A model generated the notes under the pieces. That model was given only the letters and a program-made list of their open reading frames with translations. It did no database searches and had not been told where the DNA came from. 64,000 nucleotides of DNA from a phage. Position 1 is the stretch's first letter. The number at the start of each line of letters is the position of its first letter. The stretch is taken from assembly GCA_029742005.1 (NCBI GenBank), contig GCA_029742005.1_4113.1; one strand, given 5' to 3'. The translations under genes and the position numbers were made by a program. Of the stretch, positions 7,584 to 23,516 are shown in pieces.

Positions 7584-7922
7584 ATGCTTGAGTTTTTTAA
7601 TTCAGATACAATGCTTAGTATTACTTTGATTTATCTGTTTGGTTTTTTCTTTTATCATGCACTAGTTGTAGTACTATGGTATTTTAAAAAGAAAATCGTT
7701 TTCAAACTGTATCCTGATGGAAACATTTCACTACTTCTTTTCACTATTATCCAAGGTATGTTTGCAATTGTTGGTCTTATCGCACACTTAATTTATTGTG
7801 CTAATCCACAGTTGAACTCAATATCACAATATATTGTATTCCTTGGATTACTAATTTGGGTGCTGATATACTTGTTTAATCTCATCATTAATGGTAGAGC
7901 AAAAATTCGTGGGGACTTCTAA
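7584..7922 (+). CDS. small multi-pass membrane protein, family A
   Basis: RBS GGAGA; hydrophobic; first of seven tandem paralogs. Confidence 0.55.
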   Translation: MLEFFNSDTMLSITLIYLFGFFFYHALVVVLWYFKKKIVFKLYPDGNISLLLFTIIQGMFAIVGLIAHLIYCANPQLNSISQYIVFLGLLIWVLIYLFNLIINGRAKIRGDF

Positions 7923-8269
7923 TGTTTGAATCTTATCTTGAGTTTTTAAAGAGTAGTTCTGTTGCACATTCAATTGCAGGGATTATTCTAACAGGTTATG
8001 TAACATTTTGGGTAGTTATGTTTCTAGGATGGTATTTTAAACGACAATTCTATAAGCGTAATGGTGAAGATTTTATGAATTCTTTCATTAATCAATCGTT
8101 GTTTGCATCAACATTGATAGCATGTATTGTAGCAACACTCACAGGAAAGGTACTGCCAGCATTCTCCGCAGTTTACGGTACATTGGGTATGATATGTGTA
8201 GTTTTTTACTTGACCATTAAACTTTGTTGTGTTATGATTGAACTTCGAAACAAGATACCGGAGGAATGA
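7922..8269 (+). CDS. small multi-pass membrane protein, family A
   Basis: Start overlaps previous stop; C-terminus ELRNKIPEE. Confidence 0.55.
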   Translation: MFESYLEFLKSSSVAHSIAGIILTGYVTFWVVMFLGWYFKRQFYKRNGEDFMNSFINQSLFASTLIACIVATLTGKVLPAFSAVYGTLGMICVVFYLTIKLCCVMIELRNKIPEE

Positions 8270-8604
8270 TGGAATATTTTTTACACTTACTGCCGTGGTA
8301 TATGAAAGTTAGTACTATGTACTATATTCTTAGTGCTGGATTCTACTTTCTGATGTGGTTCTTCAAACGACCAATTTCAGTATTCATCTCTGATAACATG
8401 CTGCAATTAAAATTACACGCATGGTTTTTTATGGCGATGTTTATGCCTATTATTCACTACTCAATGATTAGTAGAGGTTTACGTTCTAATGGTGAACCAA
8501 TTATATTAGTATTCTATTGGGGTTCAACTATTGCATATGTAAGTTTGTTGTTGATCCCAGCCGTTCATAAATTACGTGCTAAAGTTCCTGATGTGAGGTA
8601 CTAA
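8266..8604 (+). CDS. small multi-pass membrane protein, family A
   Basis: ATGA stop/start overlap; C-terminus KLRAKVPDVRY. Confidence 0.55.
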   Translation: MMEYFLHLLPWYMKVSTMYYILSAGFYFLMWFFKRPISVFISDNMLQLKLHAWFFMAMFMPIIHYSMISRGLRSNGEPIILVFYWGSTIAYVSLLLIPAVHKLRAKVPDVRY

Positions 8605-8918
8605 TGGATATCTTAACATTGATTTACACGTTGTATTCATTCTATTTTATTATGTGTTGGGTTGGATTTTTATTTGTACTGAAGATGTTTGATTATGTTG
8701 AAAAACAGATAAAAGAATTTTGTATTCCTTTTATTGGGTCAACCATTATTAGTATTACTTGTTTGTATTATTTGGTATGTGATCCACCTGATGATACAGC
8801 TATGATTGATTTCATGTTATTGCCAACAACTGTTATTTTTTTATGTAGTCTGATGCCACCGATTAGCCGTGGACTAACTGAATTTAGACGCAATCAAAAG
8901 CGTAAACGAGGGATGTGA
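8604..8918 (+). CDS. small multi-pass membrane protein, family A
   Basis: RBS GAGG; C-terminus EFRRNQKRKRGM. Confidence 0.55.
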   Translation: MDILTLIYTLYSFYFIMCWVGFLFVLKMFDYVEKQIKEFCIPFIGSTIISITCLYYLVCDPPDDTAMIDFMLLPTTVIFLCSLMPPISRGLTEFRRNQKRKRGM

Positions 8919-9286
8919 TGGAAATTGCACTTATTATATTAACTGCTATGTTGTTTATTAGTACAATTGTTATTATTGGCAAGTTCTTCTGTGTATCCTT
9001 CTTGGAAACCGTATACGATGAAATTGCTGATGATTATGAATTACATGCGGGATTTTTTACTACGTATTGGATTAGTTTATTACTACTTATCACTGTATGG
9101 ATTTTACATATATTCAAATGGGGTATGGTAGATGGTGATCCAGTACTGGCAATTATCTGTGTAGTGTTTGGTCTACTCGGTGGTGCTGTCCATAATCTGA
9201 TGGTAATTTGGCAAACCGTACAATATGTATTAGTTCCACATTTTCAGAGAATGCACCAAAGCATCAAATACCGCAAACGAGGATAA
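8918..9286 (+). CDS. small multi-pass membrane protein, family A
   Basis: ATG at 8918 after RBS GAGGG (ORF track starts at GTG 8915). Confidence 0.55.
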   Translation: MEIALIILTAMLFISTIVIIGKFFCVSFLETVYDEIADDYELHAGFFTTYWISLLLLITVWILHIFKWGMVDGDPVLAIICVVFGLLGGAVHNLMVIWQTVQYVLVPHFQRMHQSIKYRKRG

Positions 9287-9287
9287 C

Positions 9288-9650
9288 ATGAATAATATTG
9301 AATTATCTTTTATTGGTCAATTAATGGTAATGGCGTATACATTTATCTTCTCACTGAATGCATTCGTGTGCATTGGGAAGTACTTCCATAAGCGACCATT
9401 ATCAAATATATATGATGTAATCCAAAAGAGATATAGTCCAGCATATACTGTGTTGGGTACAGTATTCAATTTTGGTTTTATTGTATTAATAATTGGACTG
9501 TTCACATCCTCTTTGAATACAATAACCTTCGGTCTTATGATATGTTCATTGGTATTAGCCGTAATTATATGTTGTTTAGTACTACACCTTGTGATACTAT
9601 TATATATAAAGATCTCTGAAATCCACCAACGTTTGGGTATGAGGAAATAA
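9288..9650 (+). CDS. small multi-pass membrane protein, family A
   Basis: RBS GAGGA; hydrophobic. Confidence 0.55.
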   Translation: MNNIELSFIGQLMVMAYTFIFSLNAFVCIGKYFHKRPLSNIYDVIQKRYSPAYTVLGTVFNFGFIVLIIGLFTSSLNTITFGLMICSLVLAVIICCLVLHLVILLYIKISEIHQRLGMRK

Positions 9651-9651
9651 T

Positions 9652-10023
9652 ATGAGTTACCGTGAGATATTTTCCATTATTTCAATTATTATGTTCAGTA
9701 CTGGAACACTGGTATGGTTATTATATTTCTTCTGTATTAATCCAGTGTATAATATGTTATGTAATATTAAATCAAGTGCCGGATATATCACTTTTATGGT
9801 CTTTATGGGATATTATTGTCTAAGCATTTTAGGTGTTGTTTTGGTTGTTATATTTGATGTGGGGCCAAATAGTGATGGTATGGAAATACATGAATTAATA
9901 ACCATGTTTGGATGTATGATACCAACAGCACTACTGTTTGTAGCTACTGGTAGTGGATTGATAAAATTATATAATTATTTAAAATCCATTCATAATTCCA
10001 TTCATAATAAGCGTATGTCATAA
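9652..10023 (+). CDS. small multi-pass membrane protein, family A
   Basis: RBS GAGGAA; hydrophobic. Confidence 0.55.
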   Translation: MSYREIFSIISIIMFSTGTLVWLLYFFCINPVYNMLCNIKSSAGYITFMVFMGYYCLSILGVVLVVIFDVGPNSDGMEIHELITMFGCMIPTALLFVATGSGLIKLYNYLKSIHNSIHNKRMS

Positions 10024-10065: not shown

Positions 10066-10728
10066 ATGATGAAATCAAAATTAGGTTTGTTTTATAAAAA
10101 CTATTTTGTTAAACAACGTAAATTTATAAAAAAATATTTCTCTGGTGAGAAGTCTAGTCCTATAATTTTTAAAAGACCAAGTTATAATACTTACTTAGCT
10201 GGTGCTAAACAGTCTAAGAAATTTATTACTCTTTTAAATAAAAACAAAATTAAAGCTTCTTATGTTGAAACGAGAAGAAACTCATCAATAACTCCTGGTG
10301 ATTTTATTGAGTACGGATGTTTCAATATTAAGTATAATGATAATACATACTTTATGGATATTGATTGTAATACATCCAATCTTTTTAACATTGTAGTAAA
10401 TCCATTAAAACAATATAATGTTTATGGTGATTCTATTATCAAATTAATAAAAAACAAAGATGGCTTTGATTTTGAAATAAATGTTTTAGATGATAATTTT
10501 GACGAAGTACCCGTAAACCCTGAAATCTGTGATATTTTAAACAGTTTAAAAGGTAGTACCTACAATATATCATCTGATTTAATGTTTCAGTACTCATTAA
10601 TCCATAAAGATATTGAAAAGTATATTGAATGCTCCAGAATTTTGAATTTTCTCTATGATGAATTTAAAAAGAGTTCTAAAATAACTGCATACACTTTGTA
10701 CAATATTCCTAAAATGGTGAATCTTTAA
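10066..10728 (+). CDS. hypothetical protein
   Basis: RBS AAGGAG; 220 aa; converges on the minus-strand block. Confidence 0.55.
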   Translation: MMKSKLGLFYKNYFVKQRKFIKKYFSGEKSSPIIFKRPSYNTYLAGAKQSKKFITLLNKNKIKASYVETRRNSSITPGDFIEYGCFNIKYNDNTYFMDIDCNTSNLFNIVVNPLKQYNVYGDSIIKLIKNKDGFDFEINVLDDNFDEVPVNPEICDILNSLKGSTYNISSDLMFQYSLIHKDIEKYIECSRILNFLYDEFKKSSKITAYTLYNIPKMVNL

Positions 10729-11132
10729 CAAATACAGTACTGGCAACTCCACCGTCTGTAATATATTGTCCAGTACTGTAAATTTGTATACCATCGGTTA
10801 AGTAAGTTCTGTATAAAGTTGCTGTAACATATACGTTATTCATATTCATCTCTATTGGTAGTACACATTTGGTATAGGCCGACACATCTGTTTGTGTACC
10901 TATACCCAATTGACCTGCGTTATCGCCTGTGTTATTACCAGTTGCGTAAACACCCAATGAAGTTATAATATGATTAGAAAAATATGAATAACCCAAACTC
11001 TTGAGATTCTCTACTGTACAACGTACCATCTGACATAAGGGCAAAAACTGTTGTATCAGATGAAGCTATTTTTGTTACAGAAGGTTGTATGTTCTGTTTT
11101 GATGATGTGATAATTCTTCGAAAGGGTAGCAT
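10709..11132 (-). pseudogene. truncated/frameshifted RCC1-like paralog
   Basis: MLPFRR start after GGAGGA at 11132; frame breaks in 10974-11044; downstream frame has GNNTGDNAGQLGIG; total about 170 aa versus 370-395 aa for paralogs. Confidence 0.4.
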
Positions 11133-11203
11133 TGTATCCTCCAAATGTAAATCGTTATTATATTTAGGACAAAAAATGCCAGTACAAGGCACTGGCATAA
11201 AAT

Positions 11204-12373
11204 CTAAGCAGAAGGCATATCCTTCATCTTAATAAATGAAAATTGTGTACCAGTATTTGTGGTTTGATCAGTAAAATATGAATTACTACCAGCCCAGTAC
11301 AATTCATTATTAACTATACAATATATAACAGAACTCGAACTCTGTGAATACACACGACTTATATTTGATGGTTCTACTCCAGTACTGAACTGAACCGAAC
11401 CCAACTGTGAACTTGGTATCACATCAGTTGGTCTACCTAAACCATTAACACCAGCCCCACCACCACATGTATATACCCCAGTACTATCAGTTGATATATT
11501 AACATAACCATTCCCGGCATTTTCAAATAGTATTTCACTGGGAGCAACACCAAATCCTGTAAGATCTATTTTCCTGAATGTAGTGTAAACAGTAGAACCA
11601 CCAACACCTCTTCCACCATAATCATTAGAACCAGCCATATAGATACTATATCCAGAACTTCCTAAACATAATAACTGTACGTTGTCATATAATATTTGCA
11701 TAGATATAACGTTATCAGGAATACTCAATACCGTAAAAGTAGTTAAAGAAGAACTTCCAATATTACTACCAACCGATGTTCCACATCTGTAGTACTTACC
11801 GCCTTTTATATAATGGAACGATGAACCCCCTAACTTATGTGCTCCTATTGCACTTACCTCAGTATCTATGAGAATGGGAGATACAACTTTGTTATTAACA
11901 CCTAACTCAGATCTACTGTTCATACCGAACCCATATAAACGACCATCTAACATCAATATTAGTGTACTACCGGAAGTACCCGCTGACGTAAATTCTATAT
12001 TCTTTATTTGCGACACGTCAATACCTACAAATAATGAAGTTACTTCAGTCCAGTTAACATATGAACCACTAGCCCCAAAATATCCACCCATGTATAGACC
12101 TGCACAATATAATTTATTATCAACAGTCTTTATTAATGTACCGGATACACACGCCCAAAAATCATCAACTTCATAGGGTACATGTACCCAACCACCTAAT
12201 ACATCACTAGCATCCCCTGTACCTAATTTATAGTTCGAACCAGAACCACGCATGTACATATTCCCTGTACTATAAAGTAATCCGACATGTAATTGACTAC
12301 CATCCAATTTCTTTATTTCGGGAAGAGTTGGTTTAATATTTCCGTACTTTAACATTCTTCCAAAAGGTAACAT
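11204..12373 (-). CDS. RCC1-like repeat (beta-propeller) protein, MLPF family
   Basis: Start MLPFGRMLKYGN after AAAGGAGGAA; G-x-N-x-x-G-x-LG-like repeats. Confidence 0.6.
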   Translation of the reverse strand: MLPFGRMLKYGNIKPTLPEIKKLDGSQLHVGLLYSTGNMYMRGSGSNYKLGTGDASDVLGGWVHVPYEVDDFWACVSGTLIKTVDNKLYCAGLYMGGYFGASGSYVNWTEVTSLFVGIDVSQIKNIEFTSAGTSGSTLILMLDGRLYGFGMNSRSELGVNNKVVSPILIDTEVSAIGAHKLGGSSFHYIKGGKYYRCGTSVGSNIGSSSLTTFTVLSIPDNVISMQILYDNVQLLCLGSSGYSIYMAGSNDYGGRGVGGSTVYTTFRKIDLTGFGVAPSEILFENAGNGYVNISTDSTGVYTCGGGAGVNGLGRPTDVIPSSQLGSVQFSTGVEPSNISRVYSQSSSSVIYCIVNNELYWAGSNSYFTDQTTNTGTQFSFIKMKDMPSA

Positions 12374-12399
12374 AATTCCTCCTTTATTCATTATACTAT

Positions 12400-12437
12400 A
12401 TTTAATACAAAAAGAAAAGCCAGTACAGAGTACTGGC
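12400..12437 (-). terminator. terminator hairpin GCCAGTAC-N3-GTACTGGC with T-run on minus strand
   Basis: Perfect 8-bp stem; minus-strand transcript reads hairpin then TTTTCTTTTT. Confidence 0.55.
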
Positions 12438-12444
12438 CTATATT

Positions 12445-13164
12445 TTAGACTGAATTGTTAGGATAATATCTCCCACGTCCCCATATTATTCGCACAGCAC
12501 CACCACCAGCAGCCGTATAAGAAAAATTATCCCATATACTACCACCACCACCATACATCTTACCAGCACCACCACTACCAGCACCACCATTATATGAACC
12601 ATCGTATCTACCGCCAATACCATTAGCACCTTGAACAATGATACCAGTACCACCACCCGTACCAATGAACGAGGTATTATAGAATGCACCACCACCGCCG
12701 CCGCCGCCAGCACCATTTTCACCAGTGATTGCATCTCCGTTACCACCTTTACCAGTGTAGCCACCAGCACCACCACCAATGACTGCACCACCACTTACAC
12801 CAGCGTTGCCCCCATTACCACCACCATCATTAATAGCGTTAGCAGCTTTCCCACCTAGTCCACCAACCCTATATTCACCAGTGAAGCTAACACATAGTTT
12901 TTCAGTTCCACGATATAAACCGTTTTCAACTGGTGTAGTAGTGTTGGGATGTGTAAGAGAAACACTTAAGTACTCACCACTAGTAACCGGAATATTATTA
13001 CGCCACGATAAGCCGCCACCAGCACCACGTTGACCACCCGGCGAAATAACACATACTGATATTTCGGTAACGCCAGCAGGAACTGTAAATTGTGTTGTTC
13101 CTATTGTCGTGATTAATTGTTCACCATGTGGCTTATATTCAATTTTATTCCCTCCTTTATTCAT
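12445..13164 (-). CDS. glycine-rich repeat protein (possible fibre-like structural protein)
   Basis: 239 aa, long GGxGG runs in C-terminal two thirds; same upstream module as RCC1 genes. Confidence 0.55.
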   Translation of the reverse strand: MNKGGNKIEYKPHGEQLITTIGTTQFTVPAGVTEISVCVISPGGQRGAGGGLSWRNNIPVTSGEYLSVSLTHPNTTTPVENGLYRGTEKLCVSFTGEYRVGGLGGKAANAINDGGGNGGNAGVSGGAVIGGGAGGYTGKGGNGDAITGENGAGGGGGGGAFYNTSFIGTGGGTGIIVQGANGIGGRYDGSYNGGAGSGGAGKMYGGGGSIWDNFSYTAAGGGAVRIIWGRGRYYPNNSV

Positions 13165-13180
13165 TATAATATATTTAATA

Positions 13181-13211
13181 CAAAAAAGAAAAGCCAGTAC
13201 TCTGTACTGGC
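13181..13211 (-). terminator. terminator hairpin GCCAGTAC-N3-GTACTGGC with T-run
   Basis: Same hairpin as 12419-12437. Confidence 0.55.
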
Positions 13212-13218
13212 TTTTACA

Positions 13219-14409
13219 TTACAATTGTCTAGGTGTATCCAGTACATATCTATTTGTACGAGGACCACCATCATCATGCGTTCCGGTTGAATATATATTT
13301 TTCATATCAGCAGTTAGGAAAGTACGATACGAACCGCGATATATTTTAATTTTATCATACATAGAATATGTTATTCCTGACGGCAATGGACATGCAGTAA
13401 ATTTACCAATGGTAACATTAGAACCAACACCTAATGTACCAGCATAACCACTCGCATTTAAACCAGTTGCATATACACCTGTACTCGTAACTAGTATACT
13501 AGATTGTGATGCATATCCAGTATGGATTGAATAATAAGTTCCTGATGGTAATGTAGTACTATTATTCCCTAATACTGCTAGTGCTGTACTATTCGTAGTG
13601 TTATTACCCCATGCCCCATTATTAGCTAATCCACCAACTAGAAACTGACGTGCTCCTGTATTTGGATTCTCCACTAAAGCACTGACAGCACCAAATGAAC
13701 AAACAGTATATTGTAATGTTTTTGTATATGTGGTACTTGGCTTATACAAAGTATATTCATTAAATGGTGTCCATGTGGTACTAGTACTTATGCCAGATGT
13801 ACTACCACCAATATATAAATTATTTTGTGTATCAAAAAACATTGCACAGTAATTTGTTGACTGTATTTGTGCAATATCTACATCTGGTGTTACCGCTTTA
13901 ACAAATGAACCATCTGATATTTGATAAGTAGTTCCTGTACCATCTGCGAATTGTCTAGCACTATTCCACCCTGTACTCCATATTGTATTATTATCCATTA
14001 AGAAAGTAAACCATGTAGTACCTGCATACATCTGTTTAATTGAAGTACTTGAACTTTGTTTGTACAATTTTTCAATATATTGGTTATAACTTAAAAATGA
14101 TGTAGTACTAGTTTCTAAACCAATATGACTACCATATCCACAATAAAAATAATTTAAGTCCTTATCTTGAACTAACAAAGTTCCTTGTGTCATCCAGCAA
14201 TCTTTGACATTTTCTCTAATTAATGTCCACGACCTTACTGCATTATTATTTCCTCTACCAAACTTCCCAAAACTATTACTGCCTCGTGCGTATAGTTGAC
14301 CGTCGGTATAAAGTACAACAACCTCAGTATCAGTTGGTATTATTTTCTTAATTTGAAGAGGTTCAGGTGTGATATTCCCATAATCAAACATTCTAACAAA
14401 AGGTAACAT
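13219..14409 (-). CDS. RCC1-like repeat protein, MLPF family
   Basis: MLPFVRMFDYGN; RBS AAGGAGGAAAT; repeats such as YARGSNSFGKFGRGNN. Confidence 0.6.
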   Translation of the reverse strand: MLPFVRMFDYGNITPEPLQIKKIIPTDTEVVVLYTDGQLYARGSNSFGKFGRGNNNAVRSWTLIRENVKDCWMTQGTLLVQDKDLNYFYCGYGSHIGLETSTTSFLSYNQYIEKLYKQSSSTSIKQMYAGTTWFTFLMDNNTIWSTGWNSARQFADGTGTTYQISDGSFVKAVTPDVDIAQIQSTNYCAMFFDTQNNLYIGGSTSGISTSTTWTPFNEYTLYKPSTTYTKTLQYTVCSFGAVSALVENPNTGARQFLVGGLANNGAWGNNTTNSTALAVLGNNSTTLPSGTYYSIHTGYASQSSILVTSTGVYATGLNASGYAGTLGVGSNVTIGKFTACPLPSGITYSMYDKIKIYRGSYRTFLTADMKNIYSTGTHDDGGPRTNRYVLDTPRQL

Positions 14410-14478
14410 ATTTCCTCCTTATTCATTATACTATATTTAATACAAATAAGAATGCCAGTATCAAGTACTGGCATTATG

Positions 14479-15588
14479 TTATTTTGGTAAATCAATTTTA
14501 GTAAAGACTGCAACATCCTCGATTGCACCTGGAATGGCGTAATACGATCCAGTACTATACACATCTCCATTTTTGGTTAATATCGATGTCAAACCATCAC
14601 TAAAAAGAACATCCCTAATCTCACTAACTTCAACGGGTAATTGTAAATTGGTAGCACTATATATAGCACCAGTTTGAGAATTGTTTAATCCCAAACCACG
14701 GTTCGCCCCAACACCCTTCTGATATGTACTAGTAATTACCATTTGTGTAGCAGTATTTAAGGCAGGTGAATTCGTCATAAACAACGGAGAACTATTAGGC
14801 AAAGTACTTACAGGAACGGCACGGAATGTAGTCGTGCCTGAACTAAGAAAGTTTGGAGTTTGACCACATACGAAATATGATGTACCATTATAGTAATTGA
14901 ATGCATTACCACCAATGGCTGCATCGATTACACCAGAACTACGCAATCCCCAAGTGTTAATTTGTGTTTGGTTCCCCGTACCATGCTGTCCACTACTATT
15001 CCATCCAGAACTATATAGCTTATTATCTAATGTAAGATACATACTATCATTCGCATTGGTCATTACTTTACGAACGTTCGTAGCACATTGAGTTAATGTG
15101 TAAATTGATGAGGAACCAATACCCAAAGAACCACGATATCCATTATCTCCTGCACCATAGAGTACTGAATTAGTGCTAAGTACAAATATTAAACCATTTG
15201 TACATACAATATTAGCAATTTCACTTACTGGTATAGCATTGGTAAACCAATTAGTCCTTTCAACTAATACAGTACTGTAAGAAGTAGTTGTAGAAGATGA
15301 GAACCAGTACGTTTGACCTGATGTCCATATCGTATTATCATTTTTAATAATAACAAGTGTACGATCACCCACGAAAAAATTAGAAACATCTGCACTTACT
15401 AATATCCATGAAGATACCGTGTTGGTATTACCATTTCCAGATTCACCACCTTGATTTCTACCTATGTAATATAAATCATGTGAATCAGTCAATAAGAATT
15501 GACCTTGTGTAGAAGCACCAACTTTAATTATATTTTTAGGACCAGGTACAATATTTCCGTACTTAACCATTCTTGCAAAAGGTAACAT
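14479..15588 (-). CDS. RCC1-like repeat protein, MLPF family
   Basis: MLPFARMVKYGN start; 369 aa. Confidence 0.6.
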   Translation of the reverse strand: MLPFARMVKYGNIVPGPKNIIKVGASTQGQFLLTDSHDLYYIGRNQGGESGNGNTNTVSSWILVSADVSNFFVGDRTLVIIKNDNTIWTSGQTYWFSSSTTTSYSTVLVERTNWFTNAIPVSEIANIVCTNGLIFVLSTNSVLYGAGDNGYRGSLGIGSSSIYTLTQCATNVRKVMTNANDSMYLTLDNKLYSSGWNSSGQHGTGNQTQINTWGLRSSGVIDAAIGGNAFNYYNGTSYFVCGQTPNFLSSGTTTFRAVPVSTLPNSSPLFMTNSPALNTATQMVITSTYQKGVGANRGLGLNNSQTGAIYSATNLQLPVEVSEIRDVLFSDGLTSILTKNGDVYSTGSYYAIPGAIEDVAVFTKIDLPK

Positions 15589-15598
15589 AATTCTCTCC

Positions 15599-16729
15599 TT
15601 AATTTAATAATGCCCCTGGCAAATCCACTTTGACGAATTGTGCATATGCTGAGGAATTTTGATCAAAGTTTGGTCCCAATCCATAAAATGAGCTAATGCC
15701 GTCTTCATTTGTGTATATGATATAAACGTTCTTTACATCATTTCCGCATATAAATCGAATGTCTTTCGTTTGTGTTCCCGCTGGAACATTACGAAGGTTC
15801 ACAACGCCATTACTTGCATTGTTATCAGCCGACGCAATTGGTAATTGATTTTGACCATATTGACCACGCATATTTTTTGCATCTAAACCAAACACAGTAT
15901 TTGATACCGCACCAACTTTCAAAAATGAACCAAAACTATTATTGAATGACTTTGGAAATGTACCACTATAAACACTTCTCCCATCTGATAATACCGCTGA
16001 ACTGAATTTCCCGTTATTCGATATGGCAAATTCATTGTAAGGAAGTGTACCCATTTTGGTATATACAGAATATGAATTAGTGGAAGTATTATCAATAATC
16101 TTATTACCATTATATCCAATACCATACTGGTATCCGTCTGCATCTTGAACTATACACAAAGGACCACTTGGGGTTTGTGTCAACGAAACAACACGTTCAA
16201 CTTGTATATCACCAAATGTATTTCTTCGCCATGTTCTATCTATTATAGTACTAGTATTACCCAAAGATAATTCCACACTATATAATAGATTGTTTTCAGT
16301 AAAAATGGCAACATAATATGCGTGGTTAATAACTTGCTTCATCCCAGCATCAATAACTTCCTGTGGAATATGATCAGTAACATCCAACCAATCAAGGTTA
16401 GATGATGCAATATCTGGAGTACTGAATTTGTCAAATCTAGTTGAGCCACAAACTAGCACTCTATCATCATTTGTCAAAGCCACTGTGCTAGTCTGCATAT
16501 TAGAACTGAATGATTTAACATTACTAATGTTAGACTTGTACCAACCCTTATCAGCAGCACCCACCGTGAATCCGGTTCCCATTGATCCACTTGTACTTGT
16601 ACCATAAGCCCACATCTCACCACTATATGTTAGTGCCATACAGTGGCTTCCATTTGCTTGGAAATCCTTTATACCAGTGGGAGCAACCACTGTATTCCCA
16701 TAATCAAACATTCTAACAAAAGGTAACAT
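15599..16729 (-). CDS. RCC1-like repeat protein, MLPF family
   Basis: MLPFVRMFDYGN after GGAGAT; track start MEILV is the SD region. Confidence 0.6.
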   Translation of the reverse strand: MLPFVRMFDYGNTVVAPTGIKDFQANGSHCMALTYSGEMWAYGTSTSGSMGTGFTVGAADKGWYKSNISNVKSFSSNMQTSTVALTNDDRVLVCGSTRFDKFSTPDIASSNLDWLDVTDHIPQEVIDAGMKQVINHAYYVAIFTENNLLYSVELSLGNTSTIIDRTWRRNTFGDIQVERVVSLTQTPSGPLCIVQDADGYQYGIGYNGNKIIDNTSTNSYSVYTKMGTLPYNEFAISNNGKFSSAVLSDGRSVYSGTFPKSFNNSFGSFLKVGAVSNTVFGLDAKNMRGQYGQNQLPIASADNNASNGVVNLRNVPAGTQTKDIRFICGNDVKNVYIIYTNEDGISSFYGLGPNFDQNSSAYAQFVKVDLPGALLN

Positions 16730-16804
16730 AACTAAAATCTCCATATAATAATTATAATGTATTTACAAAAAAATACCAGTACATATTTCAGTACTGGCAT
16801 TTTG

Positions 16805-17932
16805 TTAAAATGGTAAATCTATTTGTTTAGTAAATGTCATACTTAGTGGTATTGAACACATTGACGCATTTCTCCCATTTAAATTGGACGGAGGCTGTCC
16901 GTTCATCCATATATTGGTATCGTCGTAAAAAGTACTCCACCACGTAGAACCTTCCGTATGAAGATTAATATTAAAATCAGGGAATTGACATTCTTGAAAA
17001 ACATCAAAAAACGGGATAGATGATACACTACTACCAGTAAATGGAGTGTAGCCTGTTGACATTAATTTATTAGTATCCGAATTTACCAAAAAGATAACAG
17101 AACCAGTATTGAATGGTGAATATTTTGGATACAAATTACTCATATCACCGATAGTGAAGTTGATATCAAATATTTTACTATGCTTACCAGTTCCTGAAAG
17201 TGTAGTACCAGTTACATATATTTTATTATCAGTTGTTCCCATGACAAACCCAATTCCAAATCCCACACAAAATGTTATGTCATATGGTATATTATCAAAG
17301 AGTGGGACAAACGTTGTGGCATCACCAGTAGTAGCTTTTATTTGATAGCTATTATTTGCCCCAGCACCCCAAACAGTACCATTTGATTTCACTTTGAATA
17401 TACTATCTCCTATGTAGTGACCGTATATACTATCAACTTCAGTATCAAGTTTTGTCCATTGTGATACAAAGTTTTTATGCCCTAAACCTAAACAACCATT
17501 GCGGTTTAGTCCCCTGCCGTATAGTGTACCATCATTCATCAGTACAAATGTTGTGTATCCACAAAGCATTTTTTTGATTTGTGTAACATCAATACCAGCA
17601 AAAAAACCACTCCAATCAGTATATCCTTGTTGGATTGCGTTTGATTTGGTGAATGACATAGTTGGTCCTGAACCATATATTTTACCATCTTTTATAATCA
17701 CTGAATAAGAACCTAACCATACATCTTGAACATTCTCACTAATTGTTTTCAATTCACCATATGCAGAGAATGGAGTACTTTGCCCTGCACTATATGATGA
17801 ATCTTCACCGTGTGCATATAATGTTCCATTTTCTGTTAGAATCATTTCCAAATATACACAATTGACAATTTTCTTTATTTTATTAACTTCTATTTTATTT
17901 CCGTACGCTAACATCCTTGCAAAAGGTAACAT
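16805..17932 (-). CDS. RCC1-like repeat protein, MLPF family
   Basis: MLPFARMLAYGN; YGRGLNRNGCLGLGH repeat. Confidence 0.6.
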   Translation of the reverse strand: MLPFARMLAYGNKIEVNKIKKIVNCVYLEMILTENGTLYAHGEDSSYSAGQSTPFSAYGELKTISENVQDVWLGSYSVIIKDGKIYGSGPTMSFTKSNAIQQGYTDWSGFFAGIDVTQIKKMLCGYTTFVLMNDGTLYGRGLNRNGCLGLGHKNFVSQWTKLDTEVDSIYGHYIGDSIFKVKSNGTVWGAGANNSYQIKATTGDATTFVPLFDNIPYDITFCVGFGIGFVMGTTDNKIYVTGTTLSGTGKHSKIFDINFTIGDMSNLYPKYSPFNTGSVIFLVNSDTNKLMSTGYTPFTGSSVSSIPFFDVFQECQFPDFNINLHTEGSTWWSTFYDDTNIWMNGQPPSNLNGRNASMCSIPLSMTFTKQIDLPF

Positions 17933-18007
17933 AACTAAAATCTCCATATAATAATTATAATGTATTTACAAAAAAATACCAGCACATATTTCAGTACTGG
18001 TATAATG

Positions 18008-19180
18008 TTATGGTAAAATAATAGCTTGTAACGAACTCATACCCAATGTTGGAACACTCGCCTGTGGTGCTGGTGCATTCACTTTTGGTGATGAAACCGC
18101 ATAAGTCATTCCTGTACCCAAATCTGGATCAAAAACTACAGAACAATAATCCCCATTGTATATAAGTCCATTAGTATATCCTTGTACACTTTGAATGCAT
18201 TTCGTGAACGTACCAATGTCAGTAGTGGCATTTATTAAGTTCCTCCCACGGTAGCCACATGTGTATATGAAATTATCATCACCTATGTACATACTCGCAT
18301 TCCCAGAAGAACTACATAGATAAGACATATAAGCACGCATGTTTTTAGGAGCAACTGACAATGTACCAGCATAGAATTTATTATTCATACCCGAAATATC
18401 ACCATCACCCAAAGCACCAAAACTCCCCCAACCAGTACCATAATATCTCTTATCACTCAAGAATATAATACAGTTGTTATTACACATCTTGACTTGATAT
18501 ATCAATGAAGGATCAACCCCAGGGAATGATTCAGTGTATGTTAGAACAGCCAGATCAGTACTGGCATTACATTGATGATATGTATTAGTACCAGCGGACA
18601 ATATTGTACCATCAACTAATAGAATCCTCGAAGTGCCAGTACCAGCAATACAAGCAACAGCATTACCTGTATATATTTTTCTGAAAGTAAAGAAACCAAC
18701 AGTCTTACTCCCCTGTCCACTCCAACCAGTATTATCAACACCACATGCCCATACTGAACCATCTTGCATGATCATCATTACACCATAGCGTTCTATCGAA
18801 ATATAGACAATCTTCGTAGTATCAACTGCACTAAATCTAGAAGTTATATCAGTCCAAACCTTTACACTCACCGCCGTCGCACCGAAAGTAGGATCTTCCC
18901 CTGCTATCATTATCCTACCATTGTTAGTCAGATACATTGTCTGACTATAACCAGTACTACAAAACTTAACACTATCAGTCTCTGGAACTTTTAACCACTC
19001 GTTGTAACGTGTTACGTTAGTGTTATTATCTAACTGATAATAGTTATTCATCCCAGATACATATAACACACCATCCTTTATTAAACTATAAGTCGCACTA
19101 TAGTCACTACAGGTATAACGTGTACCCACAGGTCGCTCAACGACGTTCCCATATTCTAACATCCTTACAAAAGGCAACAT
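18008..19180 (-). CDS. RCC1-like repeat protein, MLPF family
   Basis: MLPFVRMLEYGN; no clear SD; start uncertain. Confidence 0.5.
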   Translation of the reverse strand: MLPFVRMLEYGNVVERPVGTRYTCSDYSATYSLIKDGVLYVSGMNNYYQLDNNTNVTRYNEWLKVPETDSVKFCSTGYSQTMYLTNNGRIMIAGEDPTFGATAVSVKVWTDITSRFSAVDTTKIVYISIERYGVMMIMQDGSVWACGVDNTGWSGQGSKTVGFFTFRKIYTGNAVACIAGTGTSRILLVDGTILSAGTNTYHQCNASTDLAVLTYTESFPGVDPSLIYQVKMCNNNCIIFLSDKRYYGTGWGSFGALGDGDISGMNNKFYAGTLSVAPKNMRAYMSYLCSSSGNASMYIGDDNFIYTCGYRGRNLINATTDIGTFTKCIQSVQGYTNGLIYNGDYCSVVFDPDLGTGMTYAVSSPKVNAPAPQASVPTLGMSSLQAIILP

Positions 19181-19221
19181 AACTAAATACCAGAACATAT
19201 TTCAGTACTGGTATCGTAGCG

Positions 19222-20364
19222 TTAAAATGGCATCTTAACCTCTTTATATACTAATATATCACCGGATAAACCAGGAAACGCAGAACCATTACCACATGCA
19301 TATATAGTACTGTCATTCCACGCCGCTTGATGGTAATTACCTATAGTACATTTATAATTCGATAAATCAGTCACACCAGGTGTTAGTACATAATATACTG
19401 GTCCACTAGGTAAATTAAAATCAAATCTACCAAAGTAGTTCAAACCAGATGAATAGGACTTGTCATTAGCAAATATTACAGTACCATCTTCTGTAAAAGA
19501 ACTGTGAGAAATGTCTTTGAGATTGTTCACAACACCAGACGGTATTGATGTATTCAACGTAAAGGACGTCAATGGTGCTGCACTCGGTGTGTTGTTCGCC
19601 GTGTAACCATAATATGCATAACCAGCTACATATACACTCGAATCTGAACAAAATAAAAATGCACTCCTATAACCCAACCTAATACTCTCTATAGTCTTAC
19701 TAAAAGTAACTTTAGTAAAGGTAGGAACTAAACCACTATATCCTACCCCACATGTACCAAAATCATTCTTCCCAGTACTGTACAATTCGTTATTATTTGT
19801 AAGGTAAAATGACGCAGCAGCACCGCTATCTAAAGTACTGTAAACGTCTTTTACATTACTCGCAATCAATTTAAATGCACTCAATACGGTAGCCGAACCA
19901 TTGTTAGACAGCGTTGTTGAATCCGTGCCTTGTCCTATTGTATATAAATCTCCAGTACTAGTCAAAACAAATATACCATTAGTCGCCATAACAATTCTGT
20001 CATTCTTTAAATTAAATGAACTAAAAAGTGTACTTATATCAGTAAAGGTAGTATAACGCCCACTCTGCCCTATACTCGATAAATTCCCACTCAAATAAAC
20101 CTTATTATCATTACCAACAGCTACATAACAACCCCACCCAGCATATATCTGATCAATGCCTTGTATCGGTATTTGTAACCATTCACTACCAGTTACCGAA
20201 GCAGTACTTCCAGTTCCAAGTTCACCAGAGTTATTAGCTCCGAATACATATAAATTCCCACTATCCGATAAAACAACTGTATTACCAACTCCAGTTTTTA
20301 TATCCTTGATACCATTCTTAGGAGCAACATTCCCATAATCAAACATTCTAACAAAAGGTAACAT
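19222..20364 (-). CDS. RCC1-like repeat protein, MLPF family
   Basis: MLPFVRMFDYGN; RBS GGAGGGAAAT. Confidence 0.6.
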   Translation of the reverse strand: MLPFVRMFDYGNVAPKNGIKDIKTGVGNTVVLSDSGNLYVFGANNSGELGTGSTASVTGSEWLQIPIQGIDQIYAGWGCYVAVGNDNKVYLSGNLSSIGQSGRYTTFTDISTLFSSFNLKNDRIVMATNGIFVLTSTGDLYTIGQGTDSTTLSNNGSATVLSAFKLIASNVKDVYSTLDSGAAASFYLTNNNELYSTGKNDFGTCGVGYSGLVPTFTKVTFSKTIESIRLGYRSAFLFCSDSSVYVAGYAYYGYTANNTPSAAPLTSFTLNTSIPSGVVNNLKDISHSSFTEDGTVIFANDKSYSSGLNYFGRFDFNLPSGPVYYVLTPGVTDLSNYKCTIGNYHQAAWNDSTIYACGNGSAFPGLSGDILVYKEVKMPF

Positions 20365-20436
20365 ATTTCCCTCCTTTATTCATTATACTATATTTAATCA
20401 AAAATAAAAGCCAGTACTTGAGTACTGGCATAGTAT

Positions 20437-21564
20437 TCAAAAAGGTAAATCAATTTGCTTAGTAATAATAGTATCTAACGGTATTGAACACAATGAGAAA
20501 TTCTTTCCACCCGTATTTTCAGGATTATATCCATTCATCCATACATTATTACCTTCGTAAAATGTATTCCAGTATAAAGCCCCACTATATCGTGTATTCG
20601 AATTGAACGATGGAAAGTTGAATTCTTGGAATGATGTAAAATATGGAATGGAACTTGAACTACTTCCCGTAAATGGGGTATACCCAGTTGCTATTAGTTT
20701 GTTTGTATCTGCATTAATTAAAAATACAACACTAGTCGAATAGTCCAACGAATCAGGATGATATATATTACTCATATCACCTATAGTAAAACCAACATCA
20801 AAAACTTTACTATGTGCACCACTACCAGCAAAAGTAGTTCCAGTTGCATATATTTTATTATCAGATGTTATCATTACAAAACCAACACCAGAAACAAAAC
20901 TGCATTTTATATCATAAGATATATCATCAAACAACGGAACAAATGTGGTTGCATCACCCGATGTTGCTTTAACTTGAAAGCTGTTATTTGAACCTGAACC
21001 ATATACAGTTCCATCGTTTTTAATCTTAAACAATGTATCGCCAAGGTAACCGCCAAATATATTATCCACATTAGTGTCAAGTACAGTCCACGCTGAAACA
21101 TAATTTTTATGTCCTAAACCTAATGCACCACTTCGATTCCATCCTCTTCCATAAAGTGTTCCGTCTTTCATTAATATAAATGCTGTATAACCACATAACA
21201 TTTTTTTAATTTGGGTAACATCTATACCAGTGAAATACACAGCCCAGTCAGTATATCCTTGTTGGAAAGTATCAGAATTCGTGAATGCATATGTTGGACC
21301 TGAACCATATATTTTATCACCTTTAATAACAACGGAAAACAATCCTAACCATAAGTCATCAACTTCAGTTGTGATTTGTTGAACTGCTCCTAACGATACA
21401 AACTTTGTACTTAAACCCGCATTATAGTTTGAATCTTCACCGTGTGCATATACAGTGCCATCTTGCATTAGAAACATTTCAAGAGTGCCACTAACAACAC
21501 TTTTCTTTATATTATTAACTTCGATTATATTCCCATAATCAAACATTCTAACAAAAGGTAACAT
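20437..21564 (-). CDS. RCC1-like repeat protein, MLPF family
   Basis: MLPFVRMFDYGN; YGRGWNRSGALGLGH repeat; closest paralog of 16805-17932. Confidence 0.6.
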   Translation of the reverse strand: MLPFVRMFDYGNIIEVNNIKKSVVSGTLEMFLMQDGTVYAHGEDSNYNAGLSTKFVSLGAVQQITTEVDDLWLGLFSVVIKGDKIYGSGPTYAFTNSDTFQQGYTDWAVYFTGIDVTQIKKMLCGYTAFILMKDGTLYGRGWNRSGALGLGHKNYVSAWTVLDTNVDNIFGGYLGDTLFKIKNDGTVYGSGSNNSFQVKATSGDATTFVPLFDDISYDIKCSFVSGVGFVMITSDNKIYATGTTFAGSGAHSKVFDVGFTIGDMSNIYHPDSLDYSTSVVFLINADTNKLIATGYTPFTGSSSSSIPYFTSFQEFNFPSFNSNTRYSGALYWNTFYEGNNVWMNGYNPENTGGKNFSLCSIPLDTIITKQIDLPF

Positions 21565-21636
21565 AATTCCCTCCTTTATTCATTATACTTTATTTAATAC
21601 AAATAAGAATTCCTGTATCGAGTACTGGCATTCAAT

Positions 21637-22785
21637 TTATTGTAAAAAGGACATATCTACTTCTGTATAACTAAGAATGTTTTGACCAGCAATTCCACCC
21701 ATTACTACTATTGCATACCCACAATAATATAATTTCCCAGTGTCCGTAAGTATAAGTGAACCAGAAGGTGTTCTTACCAAATTACACGAACTATTAAAAG
21801 AAGTATACGAAGGAGTATAGGAGTACTGATTAATATTATTACCAACACCTAATTGACCACCCCTATTCGAACCAGATGCATAAAGTACTTCATCTGCTTT
21901 GACAATATGTGATGCCATGTTAGCAACACATGCATATACACCATATACCCCTGTACTCAATAATGTAGGAGTCTTGTATTGAATATCAGTACTAGTAGAT
22001 GTTCCACCTGTGCCAAATTCATTACCATATTGTGCTCCGTACTGCTTCCCACATGCGTACAAATTATTATCCGATTTGATAAAAAATGTACTCTGATAAC
22101 TTACATCAAAATCTATAACATCCGAAGAAATCATCGTTACCCCAGTAATCGAAGTTTGATTACCAGTACCCAACTGGTAGTAATAGTTAAAACCACAACC
22201 CCATAAAGTATTATCTTCTTTTAGGTATATGTTACCAACTGCCTTTTTAACCGAAGTTATAGTATCTACCCTTTTGAATGTGTTAAAAGAATTAATGTTT
22301 GTACCATCACCAAATGATGATAGGTTCGAGTTATTGTTAACTCCACAACAATACAACGTACCATCGTTTGTTATCAAATTCACCTTCATATCATTAAAAC
22401 TACTCATGTATTTTATATCAGAAACATTAATACCACCTGATGTTATCCATGTAGTACAGTCCGTCCATAACGTCTTCCTATCAGTTACCCCAGTAAATGC
22501 CTTCGTGTTACCAGTGATAAACACTTTACCAGTACCCTTTTCTTCATACAATTGACAATCACTACTGTTATCTTCCAATAAAACCCTCTGTACATTCTCT
22601 GCACAAAGAATAAATTTACTCGATGCTACACCTGTTCCAGTACCCCAATTCGTCGCAGAAGATGCATACAACTTATGTGTTAGTGTATCATGCAAATACA
22701 TAGAACCACTAGAATATATTTTAAAACGCCCAGAGTTGGTAGGTGCTTCATTCCCATAATCAAACATTCTAACAAAAGGTAACAT
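21637..22785 (-). CDS. RCC1-like repeat protein, MLPF family
   Basis: MLPFVRMFDYGN after AAAGGAGGAAAT; track start MNKGGN covers the SD. Confidence 0.6.
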   Translation of the reverse strand: MLPFVRMFDYGNEAPTNSGRFKIYSSGSMYLHDTLTHKLYASSATNWGTGTGVASSKFILCAENVQRVLLEDNSSDCQLYEEKGTGKVFITGNTKAFTGVTDRKTLWTDCTTWITSGGINVSDIKYMSSFNDMKVNLITNDGTLYCCGVNNNSNLSSFGDGTNINSFNTFKRVDTITSVKKAVGNIYLKEDNTLWGCGFNYYYQLGTGNQTSITGVTMISSDVIDFDVSYQSTFFIKSDNNLYACGKQYGAQYGNEFGTGGTSTSTDIQYKTPTLLSTGVYGVYACVANMASHIVKADEVLYASGSNRGGQLGVGNNINQYSYTPSYTSFNSSCNLVRTPSGSLILTDTGKLYYCGYAIVVMGGIAGQNILSYTEVDMSFLQ

Positions 22786-22881: not shown

Positions 22882-23109
22882 ATGACAGCTACACTTAAGT
22901 ACTACATTAATACTCTAAATGAACTAGAGTACGGTAAGTTTCTCGCGGATTGTTCGTGGCTAATAGAGCTAAAAACACATAACAGTACTGGATGTAACCT
23001 TATGCTGAACAATGCACTTGATACCCTTGTAGTGAGTATTTTACACAGCAACATCTGCGGGAATAGCAATAAACAATTATCAAAAATCTTAGTACTGGTA
23101 GCTATATGA
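22882..23109 (+). CDS. small hypothetical protein (family B-like)
   Basis: RBS TAAGGAG; 75 aa. Confidence 0.5.
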   Translation: MTATLKYYINTLNELEYGKFLADCSWLIELKTHNSTGCNLMLNNALDTLVVSILHSNICGNSNKQLSKILVLVAI

Positions 23110-23318
23110 ACACTATGAACATTAAACAGTACTACATCGATGCACTACCAACAAAAGGTCTACGAGAAAGCCTACTGTATACACAAAATAATTTTATACA
23201 CTACAAACGTTATCCTAAACTCCTGAACTCGTACAGGAATAATAACATAAGAAATGCTTTACAAGGGGTAGAAAGTATGCAATACTATTACATCCTTACC
23301 CTTTTAATCGAGTACTAA
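23106..23318 (+). CDS. small protein, family B
   Basis: ATGA overlap; MNTMNIKQYY.., C-terminus LTLLIEY. Confidence 0.5.
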   Translation: MNTMNIKQYYIDALPTKGLRESLLYTQNNFIHYKRYPKLLNSYRNNNIRNALQGVESMQYYYILTLLIEY

Positions 23319-23319
23319 T

Positions 23320-23505: not shown

Positions 23506-23516
23506 AAGAGTACTAT

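What the first reader, a model, noticed from the sequence alone, without database searches (positions are those of the whole stretch)
12445..13164. Glycine-rich low-complexity protein embedded in the RCC1 array
A 239-aa protein whose C-terminal two thirds is dominated by GGxGG runs sits among the propeller genes with the same upstream module. Glycine-rich repeats are typical of fibre-like or flexible-linker structural proteins, which fits a structural role for the whole block.
Basis: inference. Interest (0 to 1): 0.4.

Follow-up and report, generated by a model that had tools for sequence, protein, structure and literature searches.

The report
Glycine-rich binding domain, start codon deleted
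The glycine-rich ORF is not a floppy linker or fibre but a compact binding domain of a known, widespread family found at phage tail-fibre tips, and this phage's copy has lost its normal start codon and the short N-terminal tag it shares with the neighbouring propeller genes.

Summary
The ORF is real: 12445-13164, minus strand, 239 aa, 29% Gly. It lies between RCC1-like genes and has the same upstream cassette. The window is an Asteriusvirus (121Q/PBECO4-like jumbo coliphage), and the gene is the ortholog of 121Q gp243.

It is not low-complexity filler. AlphaFold gives one compact domain (pLDDT 93.5), a beta-sandwich plus a glycine lattice. Its profile retrieves thousands of PF21722 "Gly_rich_2" proteins. 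The best solved-structure match is the receptor-binding tail fibre gp24 of cyanophage Pam3, followed weakly by the ALK glycine-rich domain.

In relatives (121Q, Serratia phage BF, GAP32, a metagenomic contig) this domain, the RCC1-like propellers and a third "virion structural protein" fold all begin with a conserved MLPF... leader. Published mass spectrometry found the glycine-rich homolog and RCC1-like proteins in Eneladusvirus particles.

Best reading: a minor virion-associated ligand-binding protein that is targeted or anchored by the leader.

This window's allele has a 36-bp deletion between two GGGAAT repeats. The deletion removes the native ATG and the whole leader. The listed ATG sits inside the promoter-like TATAATG box with no ribosome-binding site before it. 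This copy is probably crippled.

The domain is ordinary. The shared leader is the more interesting lead.

The parts
12445..13164 (-). ORF as listed (239 aa, stop included). The body from K7 onward is 100% identical in protein to the Escherichia phage ECO103 4-12-1 ortholog.
12883..13125 (-). Residues 14-94: predicted beta-sandwich (TNF-like) part, strands E14-18 to E88-94.
   Evidence: AF2 model; fold matches
12550..12882 (-). Residues 95-205: glycine-rich lattice part. It has almost no DSSP secondary structure yet pLDDT 90-99. It holds the invariant GGGAGGYxGxGG core.
12448..12549 (-). Residues 206-239: C-terminal strands returning to the sandwich, with the conserved AVRIIWGxGRxYP motif.
13147..13152 (-). 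GGGAAT: junction of the 36-bp deletion. Orthologs have two GGGAAT copies 36 bp apart. The lost segment held the ATG and the codons for MLPFGRMVKYGN.
13150..13158 (-). Shine-Dalgarno-like AAAGGAGGG, now lying inside the listed ORF (codons 3-5).
13141..13143 (-). In-frame ATT (Ile8), 7 nt after GGAGG. It is the only in-frame codon placed where the paralogs have their ATG.
   Evidence: read from sequence
13153..13177 (-). Conserved AT-rich promoter-like box TAAATATATTATAATGAATAAAGGA. The ORF's ATG (13162-13164) is part of TATAATG.
   Evidence: 6 matches, 0 expected
13189..13215 (-). Terminator-like hairpin ending the upstream RCC1-like gene; first element of the cassette.
12417..12439 (-). Terminator-like hairpin just after the stop codon of the glycine-rich gene.
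13219..14409 (-). Upstream neighbour: RCC1-like propeller paralog starting MLPFVRMFDYGN.
11204..12373 (-). Downstream neighbour: RCC1-like propeller paralog starting MLPFGRMLKYGN.
14479..22785 (-). Rest of the array: seven more RCC1-like paralogs. They are about 20% identical overall, but the first 12 residues are nearly invariant.

Best explanation
The gene encodes a stand-alone TNF-like beta-sandwich plus glycine-rich lattice domain of the PF21722 'Gly_rich_2' superfamily. The same module forms the receptor-binding tip of cyanophage Pam3 tail fibre gp24 and, per that literature, resembles the ligand-binding domain of ALK.

In Asteriusvirus and related RaK2-like jumbo phages it is one of several interchangeable 'bodies': RCC1-like propeller, this glycine-rich domain, and a PHROG 6011 fold. 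Each is fused to a conserved N-terminal leader, M[LI]PFxR[MI]xxYGN or MLPFPIIS. In Asteriusvirus each is expressed from an identical cassette of hairpin, AT-rich box and SD.

Inferred mechanism: the leader targets or anchors the body to the phage particle, and the body binds a ligand, most likely a host surface structure. The array would then be a set of alternative accessory adhesins.

Shown: domain identity, the cassette, the leader and its conservation, and the deletion. Taken from papers: virion presence of homologs. Inferred: the leader's role, the ligand, and the location on the particle.

In this window a 36-bp deletion between GGGAAT repeats removed the native ATG and the whole leader. 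This copy is therefore probably poorly translated and/or not incorporated, making it a very recent hypomorphic or dead allele.
For: Domain identity:
- PHROG 4474, E 2e-65.
- 113 homologs found, the distant ones carrying PF21722.
- 17 of 41 aligned members hit PF21722.
- The family profile hits 6781 clusters, and PF21722 is found in 8 of 10 top hits checked.
- AF2 pLDDT 93.5.
- Foldseek PDB top hit is 7ypx_A, the Pam3 fibre, at E 7e-4 and prob 0.99; the ALK GRD entry 7lir follows.
- 86 BFVD hits, TMq up to 0.76, to 'glycine-rich domain' proteins including tail-fibre and baseplate proteins.

Function of the module:
- Pam3 gp24 is described as TNF-like plus glycine-rich domains that recognise the receptor (PMC9608196).
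- Host-range mutations map to the glycine-rich domain of a Klebsiella phage fibre that binds LPS (PMC12671077).

Leader:
- It is present on all 9 RCC1 paralogs in the window.
- It is present on 121Q gp243.
- It is present on the glycine-rich gene and the RCC1 neighbour in contig L014.
- It is present on 8 genes of three folds in Serratia phage BF.
- It is present on GAP32 gp1 and gp2.
- Leader codons vary synonymously while the residues stay fixed.
- The paralogs are about 20% identical overall, yet M1 L2 P3 F4 R6 M7 Y10 G11 N12 are invariant.

Virion presence: MS data.

Deletion:
- Shown by alignment to 10 orthologs.
- No GenBank record reaches 100% identity; the best is 99.2%.
- The same allele occurs in an independent SRA contig, where a second in-frame 99-bp deletion removes the invariant core.
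Against: - The window protein itself does not reach any Pfam, NCBIfam or PDB sequence threshold.
- TM-scores to solved structures are low: 0.30 for Pam3 gp24 and 0.23 for ALK.
- There is no helical docking or trimerisation domain and no fibre-chaperone gene.
- Stand-alone homologs in other phages sit in non-structural neighbourhoods: PVP-SE1 gp19 next to DNA polymerase and NAD genes, and L020 next to DHFR and TK.
- The role of the leader is pure inference. The RCC1 model that might have shown whether it is free is poor (pLDDT 59.7).
- The body of the window allele differs from ECO103 by only 2 synonymous bases, so there is no decay signal in this genome.
- Translation from the upstream ATG or from ATT cannot be excluded.
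- dN/dS among orthologs is 0.3-0.8 on very few substitutions.
Confidence: 0.55

Rival explanations
1. Internal head or ejected protein. On this reading the MLPF leader is a capsid-targeting sequence like the N-terminal CTS of the T4 internal proteins. The RCC1-like and glycine-rich proteins would be packed into the prohead core or inner body and perhaps injected.
For: - RaK2-like phages have T4-type prohead core, scaffold and protease genes (listed).
- The phAPEC6 authors proposed the RCC1-like proteins as inner-body candidates.
- PHROG 6011, the third leader-bearing fold, is filed under 'head and packaging'.
- A hypervariable array with a conserved 5' cassette resembles the T4 internal-protein loci (my own knowledge).
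Against: - The leader has no conserved Glu or L/I-x-E cleavage site.
- The paralogs are mostly acidic, pI 4.7-6.7, unlike DNA-associated core proteins.
- All known roles of the TNF-like/glycine-rich module are extracellular ligand binding.
- The homologs were detected in freeze-thaw 'ghost' preparations; this is weak evidence.
Confidence: 0.17
2. The deletion allele is still functional. The leader would be a dispensable relic of the cassette in which the domain was inserted, and translation would start at the upstream ATG (possibly on a leaderless mRNA) or at ATT.
For: - The reading frame is intact and identical in protein to ECO103 from K7 onward.
- The upstream ATG is in frame.
- The junction regenerates GGAGGG 7 nt before an in-frame ATT.
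- The AF2 model does not need residues 1-13.
- The allele is found in two distinct phages.
Against: - The leader is the most conserved part of about 25 proteins of three folds in four phage lineages, with synonymous codon variation.
- No SD precedes the upstream ATG.
- ATT is a very weak start codon in E. coli (my own knowledge).
- The only other carrier of the allele has lost 33 residues including the invariant core.
- None of the 18 GenBank Asteriusvirus hits matches the deletion allele.
Confidence: 0.25
3. One reading: a glycine-rich fibre or flexible linker with a purely architectural role.
For: High glycine content. Some database records call homologs 'collagen-like' or 'PE-PGRS'.
Against: - The predicted domain is confident and compact.
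- There is no tandem repeat or G-X-Y periodicity.
- Non-glycine positions are conserved.
- There is no PE or collagen Pfam hit.
Confidence: 0.04
4. A non-virion, intracellular or lysis-associated role.
For: Homolog contexts: directly after a muramidase (L013); followed by a small membrane protein (L011 and L016); among replication and nucleotide-metabolism genes.
Against: The closest arrangement, Eneladusvirus with the same RCC1 array and the same leader, gives virion MS detection. No enzymatic or defence-related family was hit.
Confidence: 0.1

Closest known systems
Cyanophage Pam3 tail fibre gp24 (PDB 7ypx/7yfw)
   Same: A TNF-like beta-sandwich followed by a domain with about 39% glycine built of stacked glycine-rich motifs. 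It is the best solved-structure match (Foldseek E 7e-4, prob 0.99). Its described role is receptor recognition.
   Different: gp24 has a long N-terminal helical bundle that trimerises and docks to the baseplate, and a dedicated chaperone gp25. Here there is only a 12-residue leader (deleted in this window), no helix and no chaperone gene. There is no detectable sequence similarity, and TM is 0.30.
Pfam PF21722 Gly_rich_2, and by the literature the ALK/LTK glycine-rich ligand-binding domain
   Same: The family profile retrieves PF21722 proteins at E down to 1e-129, and the Pfam model is matched end to end in homologs of similar length. ALK GRD (7lir) is the second PDB fold hit.
   Different: The window protein itself scores below Pfam detection. 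Most family members are long multi-copy proteins of 500-5000 aa, whereas this one is a single stand-alone domain. The ALK hit is weak (E 0.17).
[quoted passage not shown]
   Same: The same PHROG 4474. It is also embedded in an RCC1-like array, also starts with an MLPF leader, and is detected in virions by LC-MS/MS. The BFVD model matches at TMq 0.72.
   Different: It has leader subtype MLPFPIIS rather than MLPFxRMxxYGN, operon-like spacing without the hairpin/promoter cassette, and two copies per genome. The 'PE-PGRS' name is a compositional artefact.
Salmonella phage S16 / T2-type gp38 adhesin
   Same: A small adhesin of about 250 aa whose glycine-rich motifs form a lattice presenting variable loops, attached to a fibre tip through its N-terminus (as described).
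   Different: It has a beta-helix rather than a TNF-like middle domain. It is not among the fold or sequence hits here.
T4 internal proteins with a capsid-targeting sequence; adenovirus fibre N-terminal penton-binding motif (my own knowledge)
   Same: A short conserved N-terminal peptide shared by otherwise unrelated or divergent proteins, which directs them to a place in the particle.
   Different: There is no sequence relation. No cleavage motif is seen in the MLPF leader. The role of the leader is untested.

Membership tests
PF21722 Gly_rich_2 superfamily | Direct match of the protein to the Pfam HMM above the gathering score | tested here: not met
   0 Pfam families at E<=1 for the window protein.
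PF21722 Gly_rich_2 superfamily | Homology by profile or transitive search | tested here: met
   17 of 41 aligned homologs hit PF21722, best E 8e-13. The profile finds 6781 clusters, and 8 of 10 top hits carry PF21722 across positions 1-225 of 226. BF_0541 and BF_0543 hit it weakly.
TNF-like + glycine-rich module (Pam3 gp24 / ALK GRD type) | Beta-sandwich followed by, and closed around, a glycine lattice lacking regular secondary structure | tested here: met
   In the AF2 model, strands lie at residues 14-94 and 209-228. Residues 95-205 are almost free of DSSP elements at pLDDT 90-99. The top PDB hits are 7ypx_A and 7lir. This is prediction-level evidence only, and the TM-scores are low.
TNF-like + glycine-rich module (Pam3 gp24 / ALK GRD type) | Polyglycine-II backbone geometry and hexagonal packing of the glycine motifs | not testable with these tools
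Phage tail fibre (Pam3 gp24-like) | N-terminal helical trimerisation or baseplate-docking domain | tested here: not met
   No helix precedes the sandwich; only 13 residues, of low confidence, come before the first strand.
Phage tail fibre (Pam3 gp24-like) | Adjacent fibre chaperone (Tfa/gp25-like) gene | tested here: not met
   Both neighbours are RCC1-like genes with their own cassettes.
PE-PGRS (the label used in some phage records) | N-terminal PE domain | tested here: not met
   No PE-domain or any other Pfam hit.
Collagen-like or tandem-repeat fibre | Periodic G-X-Y or tandem repeat units | tested here: not met
   TRF finds only a 49-nt imperfect ACC run. Glycine runs are irregular.
MLPF-leader cassette family of RaK2-like jumbo phages (not a named family) | N-terminal M[LI]PF leader | tested here: not met
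   The leader is present in all 10 orthologs whose 5' ends were read, but deleted in the window allele.
MLPF-leader cassette family of RaK2-like jumbo phages (not a named family) | Shared hairpin + AT-rich box + SD cassette, and position inside the RCC1-like array | tested here: met
   Array membership is conserved in L014 and Serratia phage BF.
Virion structural protein | Detection in purified particles | not testable with these tools
   The only evidence is on a homolog, in the Eneladusvirus MS data. In phAPEC6 the gene was mis-annotated as an alternative-frame ORF, so that MS search could not find it.

The most novel reading that the evidence does not exclude
The 8-12-residue MLPF leader is a portable virion-targeting or docking signal. 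It would let RaK2-like jumbo phages (Asteriusvirus, Eneladusvirus, Mimasvirus) load a changing repertoire of unrelated binding folds onto the particle: RCC1-like propellers, the TNF-like/glycine-rich domain, and the PHROG 6011 fold. The window phage would then be a natural leader knock-out of one member, paired with a near-isogenic leader-bearing relative (ECO103 4-12-1, whose body differs by 2 synonymous bases).
Probability: 0.4. Interest if true: 0.6.

Novelty: new member of a known kind. Interest (0 to 1): 0.35.

Why it matters
The protein itself is an ordinary member of a large, already catalogued domain family. Three corrections are useful.

1. The "PE-PGRS", "collagen-like" and "hypothetical" labels on this gene in jumbo-phage records hide a recognisable receptor-binding-type module.
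2. The "DNA condensation" label on the surrounding RCC1-like array is not supported by charge. The shared leader and the published virion MS point to a family of exchangeable particle-associated binding proteins.
3. The phAPEC6 annotation replaces this gene with a spurious alternative-frame ORF, so existing virion proteomics could not have seen it.

If the leader is a general virion-loading tag, it would give a handle for displaying foreign domains on jumbo phages. It could also explain how these phages diversify surface binders.

Tried and rejected
- Direct sequence searches of the window protein found nothing: Pfam, NCBIfam, PADLOC and PDB.
- A PDB search with the family profile found nothing. 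Searches with three PF21722-bearing homologs gave only chance-level hits.
- I tried to link Pam3 gp24 by sequence, but no accession was found in the paper, so the link rests on Foldseek alone.
- The AF2 model of an RCC1 paralog, meant to show whether the leader is a propeller strand, was too poor to decide (pLDDT 59.7).
- dN/dS among Asteriusvirus orthologs rests on too few substitutions to be informative.
- The Sharanji and fEgEco12 papers contain nothing on this gene. The CB7 paper does not mention it.
- A search for 'MLPF' in the literature gave no relevant paper.
- The idea that the RCC1/glycine-rich set forms the 'hairy' whiskers is rejected as a general explanation. Phage CBB has whiskers but no RCC1-like gene.
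- General co-occurrence with RCC1 genes is rejected. It holds for Asteriusvirus, Eneladusvirus and contig L014, but not for phiTE-like, PVP-SE1-like or other large phages.
- A PHROG 6011 body is absent from the window; only the leaders match.

Full report
**Source and observation**

The window is an Asteriusvirus, a 121Q/PBECO4-like jumbo coliphage. The ORF's protein matches 18 Escherichia phage genomes at 84-99% identity and corresponds to 121Q gp243, annotated as a hypothetical protein.

The ORF at 12445-13164 (minus strand, 239 aa) exists as described.
- It has 70 glycines (29%), and 39% in residues 96-239.
- The average over 73 window ORFs is 6.6%, giving a binomial P of about 1e-26.
- It lies between two RCC1-like genes (PF25390, PHROG 4219), inside an array of nine intact paralogs.

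The "same upstream module" is real.
- It consists of a terminator-like hairpin (13189-13215) followed by TTGTATTAAATATAnTATAATGAATAAAGGAGG.
- The box occurs six times in the window against none expected.
- A second hairpin follows the stop codon (12417-12439).

**What the protein is**

Direct searches of Pfam, NCBIfam, PADLOC and PDB sequences give nothing. PHROG 4474, of unknown function, matches at E 2e-65.

A database search found 113 homologs. The distant ones carry Pfam PF21722, Gly_rich_2.
- In a 41-sequence alignment, 17 columns are invariant. They include GGGAGGYxGxGG and a C-terminal W-G...P motif.
- 17 of the 41 members hit PF21722 on their own.
- The profile of that alignment finds 6781 clusters at 50% identity, 1777 of them at E<=1e-30.
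- Many of those are proteins of 500-5000 aa with several copies of the domain.
- PF21722 covers the matched stretches end to end in 8 of 10 checked.

AlphaFold2 with this alignment gives a single compact domain, pLDDT 93.5 and pTM 0.90.
- Beta strands lie at residues 14-94 and 209-228.
- Residues 95-205 have almost no DSSP elements yet are very confident.

Foldseek results point the same way.
- The best solved match is the cyanophage Pam3 fibre (7ypx_A, E 7e-4, prob 0.99, but TM only 0.30). The invertebrate ALK glycine-rich domain follows (7lir, E 0.17).
- Among predicted viral structures there are 86 matches at E<=1e-3, with TMq up to 0.76. They are 'glycine-rich domain-containing' proteins, tail-fibre and baseplate proteins, and megavirus 'collagen-like' proteins.

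[quoted passage not shown] That glycine-rich domain is 39% Gly over 125 residues. The paper notes its resemblance to S16 gp38 and to C. elegans ALK (PMC9608196). In a Klebsiella phage fibre of the same type, host-range mutations map to the glycine-rich domain and the protein binds LPS (PMC12671077).

TRF finds no real tandem repeat. The glycines therefore build a defined binding domain, not a linker, a fibre shaft or low-complexity filler.

**The 5' end is abnormal in this window**

121Q gp243 and its cluster (P0001, 245 aa) begin MLPFGRMVKYGNKIEY.... The window ORF begins MNKGGNKIEY....

I aligned the window with ten orthologs: 121Q, phAPEC6, ECO103 4-12-1, UB, JP4, ELP-22, Sharanji, Turkey3, fEgEco12 and CMSTMSU.
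- The alignments show a 36-bp deletion in the window, between two GGGAAT direct repeats.
- It removes the native ATG and the twelve leader codons.
- None of the 18 GenBank hits is 100% identical. The best, at 99.2%, differ from the window only where MNKGGN aligns with MVKYGN.

What remains for translation is poor.
- The ORF's ATG is the G-terminal part of the conserved TATAATG box and has no SD before it.
- The SD (GGAGGG, regenerated at the junction) is now followed 7 nt later by an in-frame ATT.
- ATT is a very weak initiator in E. coli (my own knowledge).

From K7 onward the protein is identical to that of ECO103 4-12-1, with two synonymous base differences, so the deletion is very recent.

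The same allele occurs in a Logan contig from SRR12907740.
- That contig is a different phage: 99.8% identical upstream of the gene and 96.6% downstream.
- There, a further in-frame 99-bp deletion between GGTGGTGCA repeats removes 33 residues, including the invariant core.
- This is consistent with relaxed selection after loss of the start codon. Assembly error cannot be fully excluded.

**The leader is the key to the block**

All nine RCC1-like paralogs in the window start MLPF[VAG]RMxxYGN. They are only about 20% identical overall, yet nine of the first twelve residues are invariant.

The leader recurs in other phages and on other folds.
- In contig L014, whose glycine-rich protein is 57% identical to the window's, the gene is again flanked by RCC1-like genes. 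It and the next gene share MIPFARIVKYGN.
- In Serratia phage BF (Eneladusvirus), the array BF_0540-0549 contains RCC1-like genes, two glycine-rich genes (BF_0541 'PE-PGRS family protein' and BF_0543) and BF_0548. All start MLPFPIIS... or MLPFARIVEYGN.
- BF_0548 and GAP32_002 belong to PHROG 6011, 'virion structural protein'.
- GAP32 gp1 (RCC1-like) and gp2 start MLPFSRIIQYGN and MLPFARIFRYGD.

Leader codons vary synonymously (TTA/TTG/CTA, CCT/CCA/CCC, AGA/AGG, TAT/TAC, GGG/GGA/GGT). The constraint therefore acts on the peptide, not only on the DNA. I found no paper describing this leader.

**Virion association**

- phAPEC6 MS found six RCC1-like paralogs, with 1-4 peptides each (PMC7247149).
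- The glycine-rich gene could not be found there, because the record annotates a spurious alternative-frame ORF (gp004, VVQSLVVV...) in its place.
- GAP32 gp1 was identified by MS according to the CBB paper. That paper also shows that CBB has tail whiskers but no RCC1-like gene, so these proteins are not the whiskers as such (PMC5259590).
- In Erwinia phages pEa_SNUABM_12/47/50, LC-MS/MS of particle preparations detected four RCC1-like 'DNA condensation proteins'. It also detected the 25.9-kDa 'PE-PGRS family protein', with 1/6/13 peptides and 10/18/28% coverage (PMC7760394).
- The RCC1 paralogs here are mostly acidic (pI 4.7-6.7), which does not fit a DNA-condensing role.

**Mechanism proposed**

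The domain identity, the cassette, the leader and the deletion are shown. The virion presence of homologs comes from papers.

The rest is inferred. The leader would target or anchor each body to the particle. The bodies are all binding-type folds, and would act as alternative accessory adhesins. The window allele, lacking its start codon and leader, would be hypomorphic or dead.

The main rival is a T4-like capsid-targeting role for the leader, which would make these internal or ejected proteins. Another rival concerns only this allele: that the deletion copy is still functional. It is compatible with either view of what the family does. I cannot separate these with the tools at hand. The RCC1 model that might have shown whether the leader is free was too poor.

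**Limits**

- Stand-alone homologs in other large phages sit in varied neighbourhoods: before the terminase, after a muramidase, and among replication or nucleotide-metabolism genes. The link to RCC1 arrays is therefore lineage-specific, and a structural role is not universal.
- Those homologs carry a different short N-terminal motif, M-x-E-[LM]-[LM].

**Verdict**

The protein is a new member of a known domain family. The shared MLPF leader is the lead worth following.

Noticed in passing
window 10709-11198 (-): A degenerate RCC1-like paralog at the end of the array. It is split into two short ORFs (74 and 111 aa) and still shows an MLPFRRIITSS leader variant and a GQLGIG RCC1 motif.
   Followed up: partly
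L002 (phAPEC6 MK817115) 7716-8018: The annotated gp004 is a spurious alternative-frame ORF (VVQSLVVV...) inside the glycine-rich gene. The real 245-aa ORF is not annotated there, so the published virion MS could not detect it. The window has the same alternative-frame ORF at 12486-12794 (-).
   Followed up: yes
window 11204-22785 (-); L022; L023: A conserved N-terminal MLPF leader is shared by three unrelated body folds (RCC1-like, PF21722 glycine-rich, PHROG 6011) in Asteriusvirus, Eneladusvirus and Mimasvirus. There are two subtypes, MLPFxR[MI]xxYGN and MLPFPIIS. It appears to be undescribed.
   Followed up: partly
window 23000-27000: A family of small ORFs with repeated 5' modules (AGGTACTAATATG[A/C]A[T/C]AAAGAATACTAC...; repeat families D10-D12). 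It corresponds to the run of roughly 60-aa paralogs gp249-265 in 121Q.
   Followed up: no
window 7584-10023 (+): A run of seven back-to-back ORFs of 104-123 aa. Those whose translations were read are hydrophobic and look like another tandemly duplicated family.
   Followed up: no
window 11204-22785 (-): The RCC1-like paralogs are mostly acidic (pI 4.7-6.7, one at 8.4). The usual 'DNA condensation protein' annotation has no support from charge.
   Followed up: partly
L015 (SRR12907740) 1238-1858: A second phage carries the same 36-bp start/leader deletion. It also has an in-frame 99-bp deletion between GGTGGTGCA repeats that removes the invariant GGGAGGYxGxGG core.
   Followed up: partly
L016 7879-9746; L011 10001-11118; L013 9162-10783: In phiTE-like contigs the stand-alone glycine-rich gene (a tandem pair in L016) is followed by a 123-aa gene. 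The L016 copy, the only one read, starts MLEFM and has a hydrophobic, transmembrane-like stretch. In a 216-kb contig the glycine-rich gene directly follows a muramidase. A lysis-region association is possible.
   Followed up: no
L010 (CMSTMSU MH494197) 301-1014: The ortholog is frameshifted after about 36 codons counted from the KIEY anchor (K7). The record is flagged UNVERIFIED, so this is likely a sequencing error.
   Followed up: no
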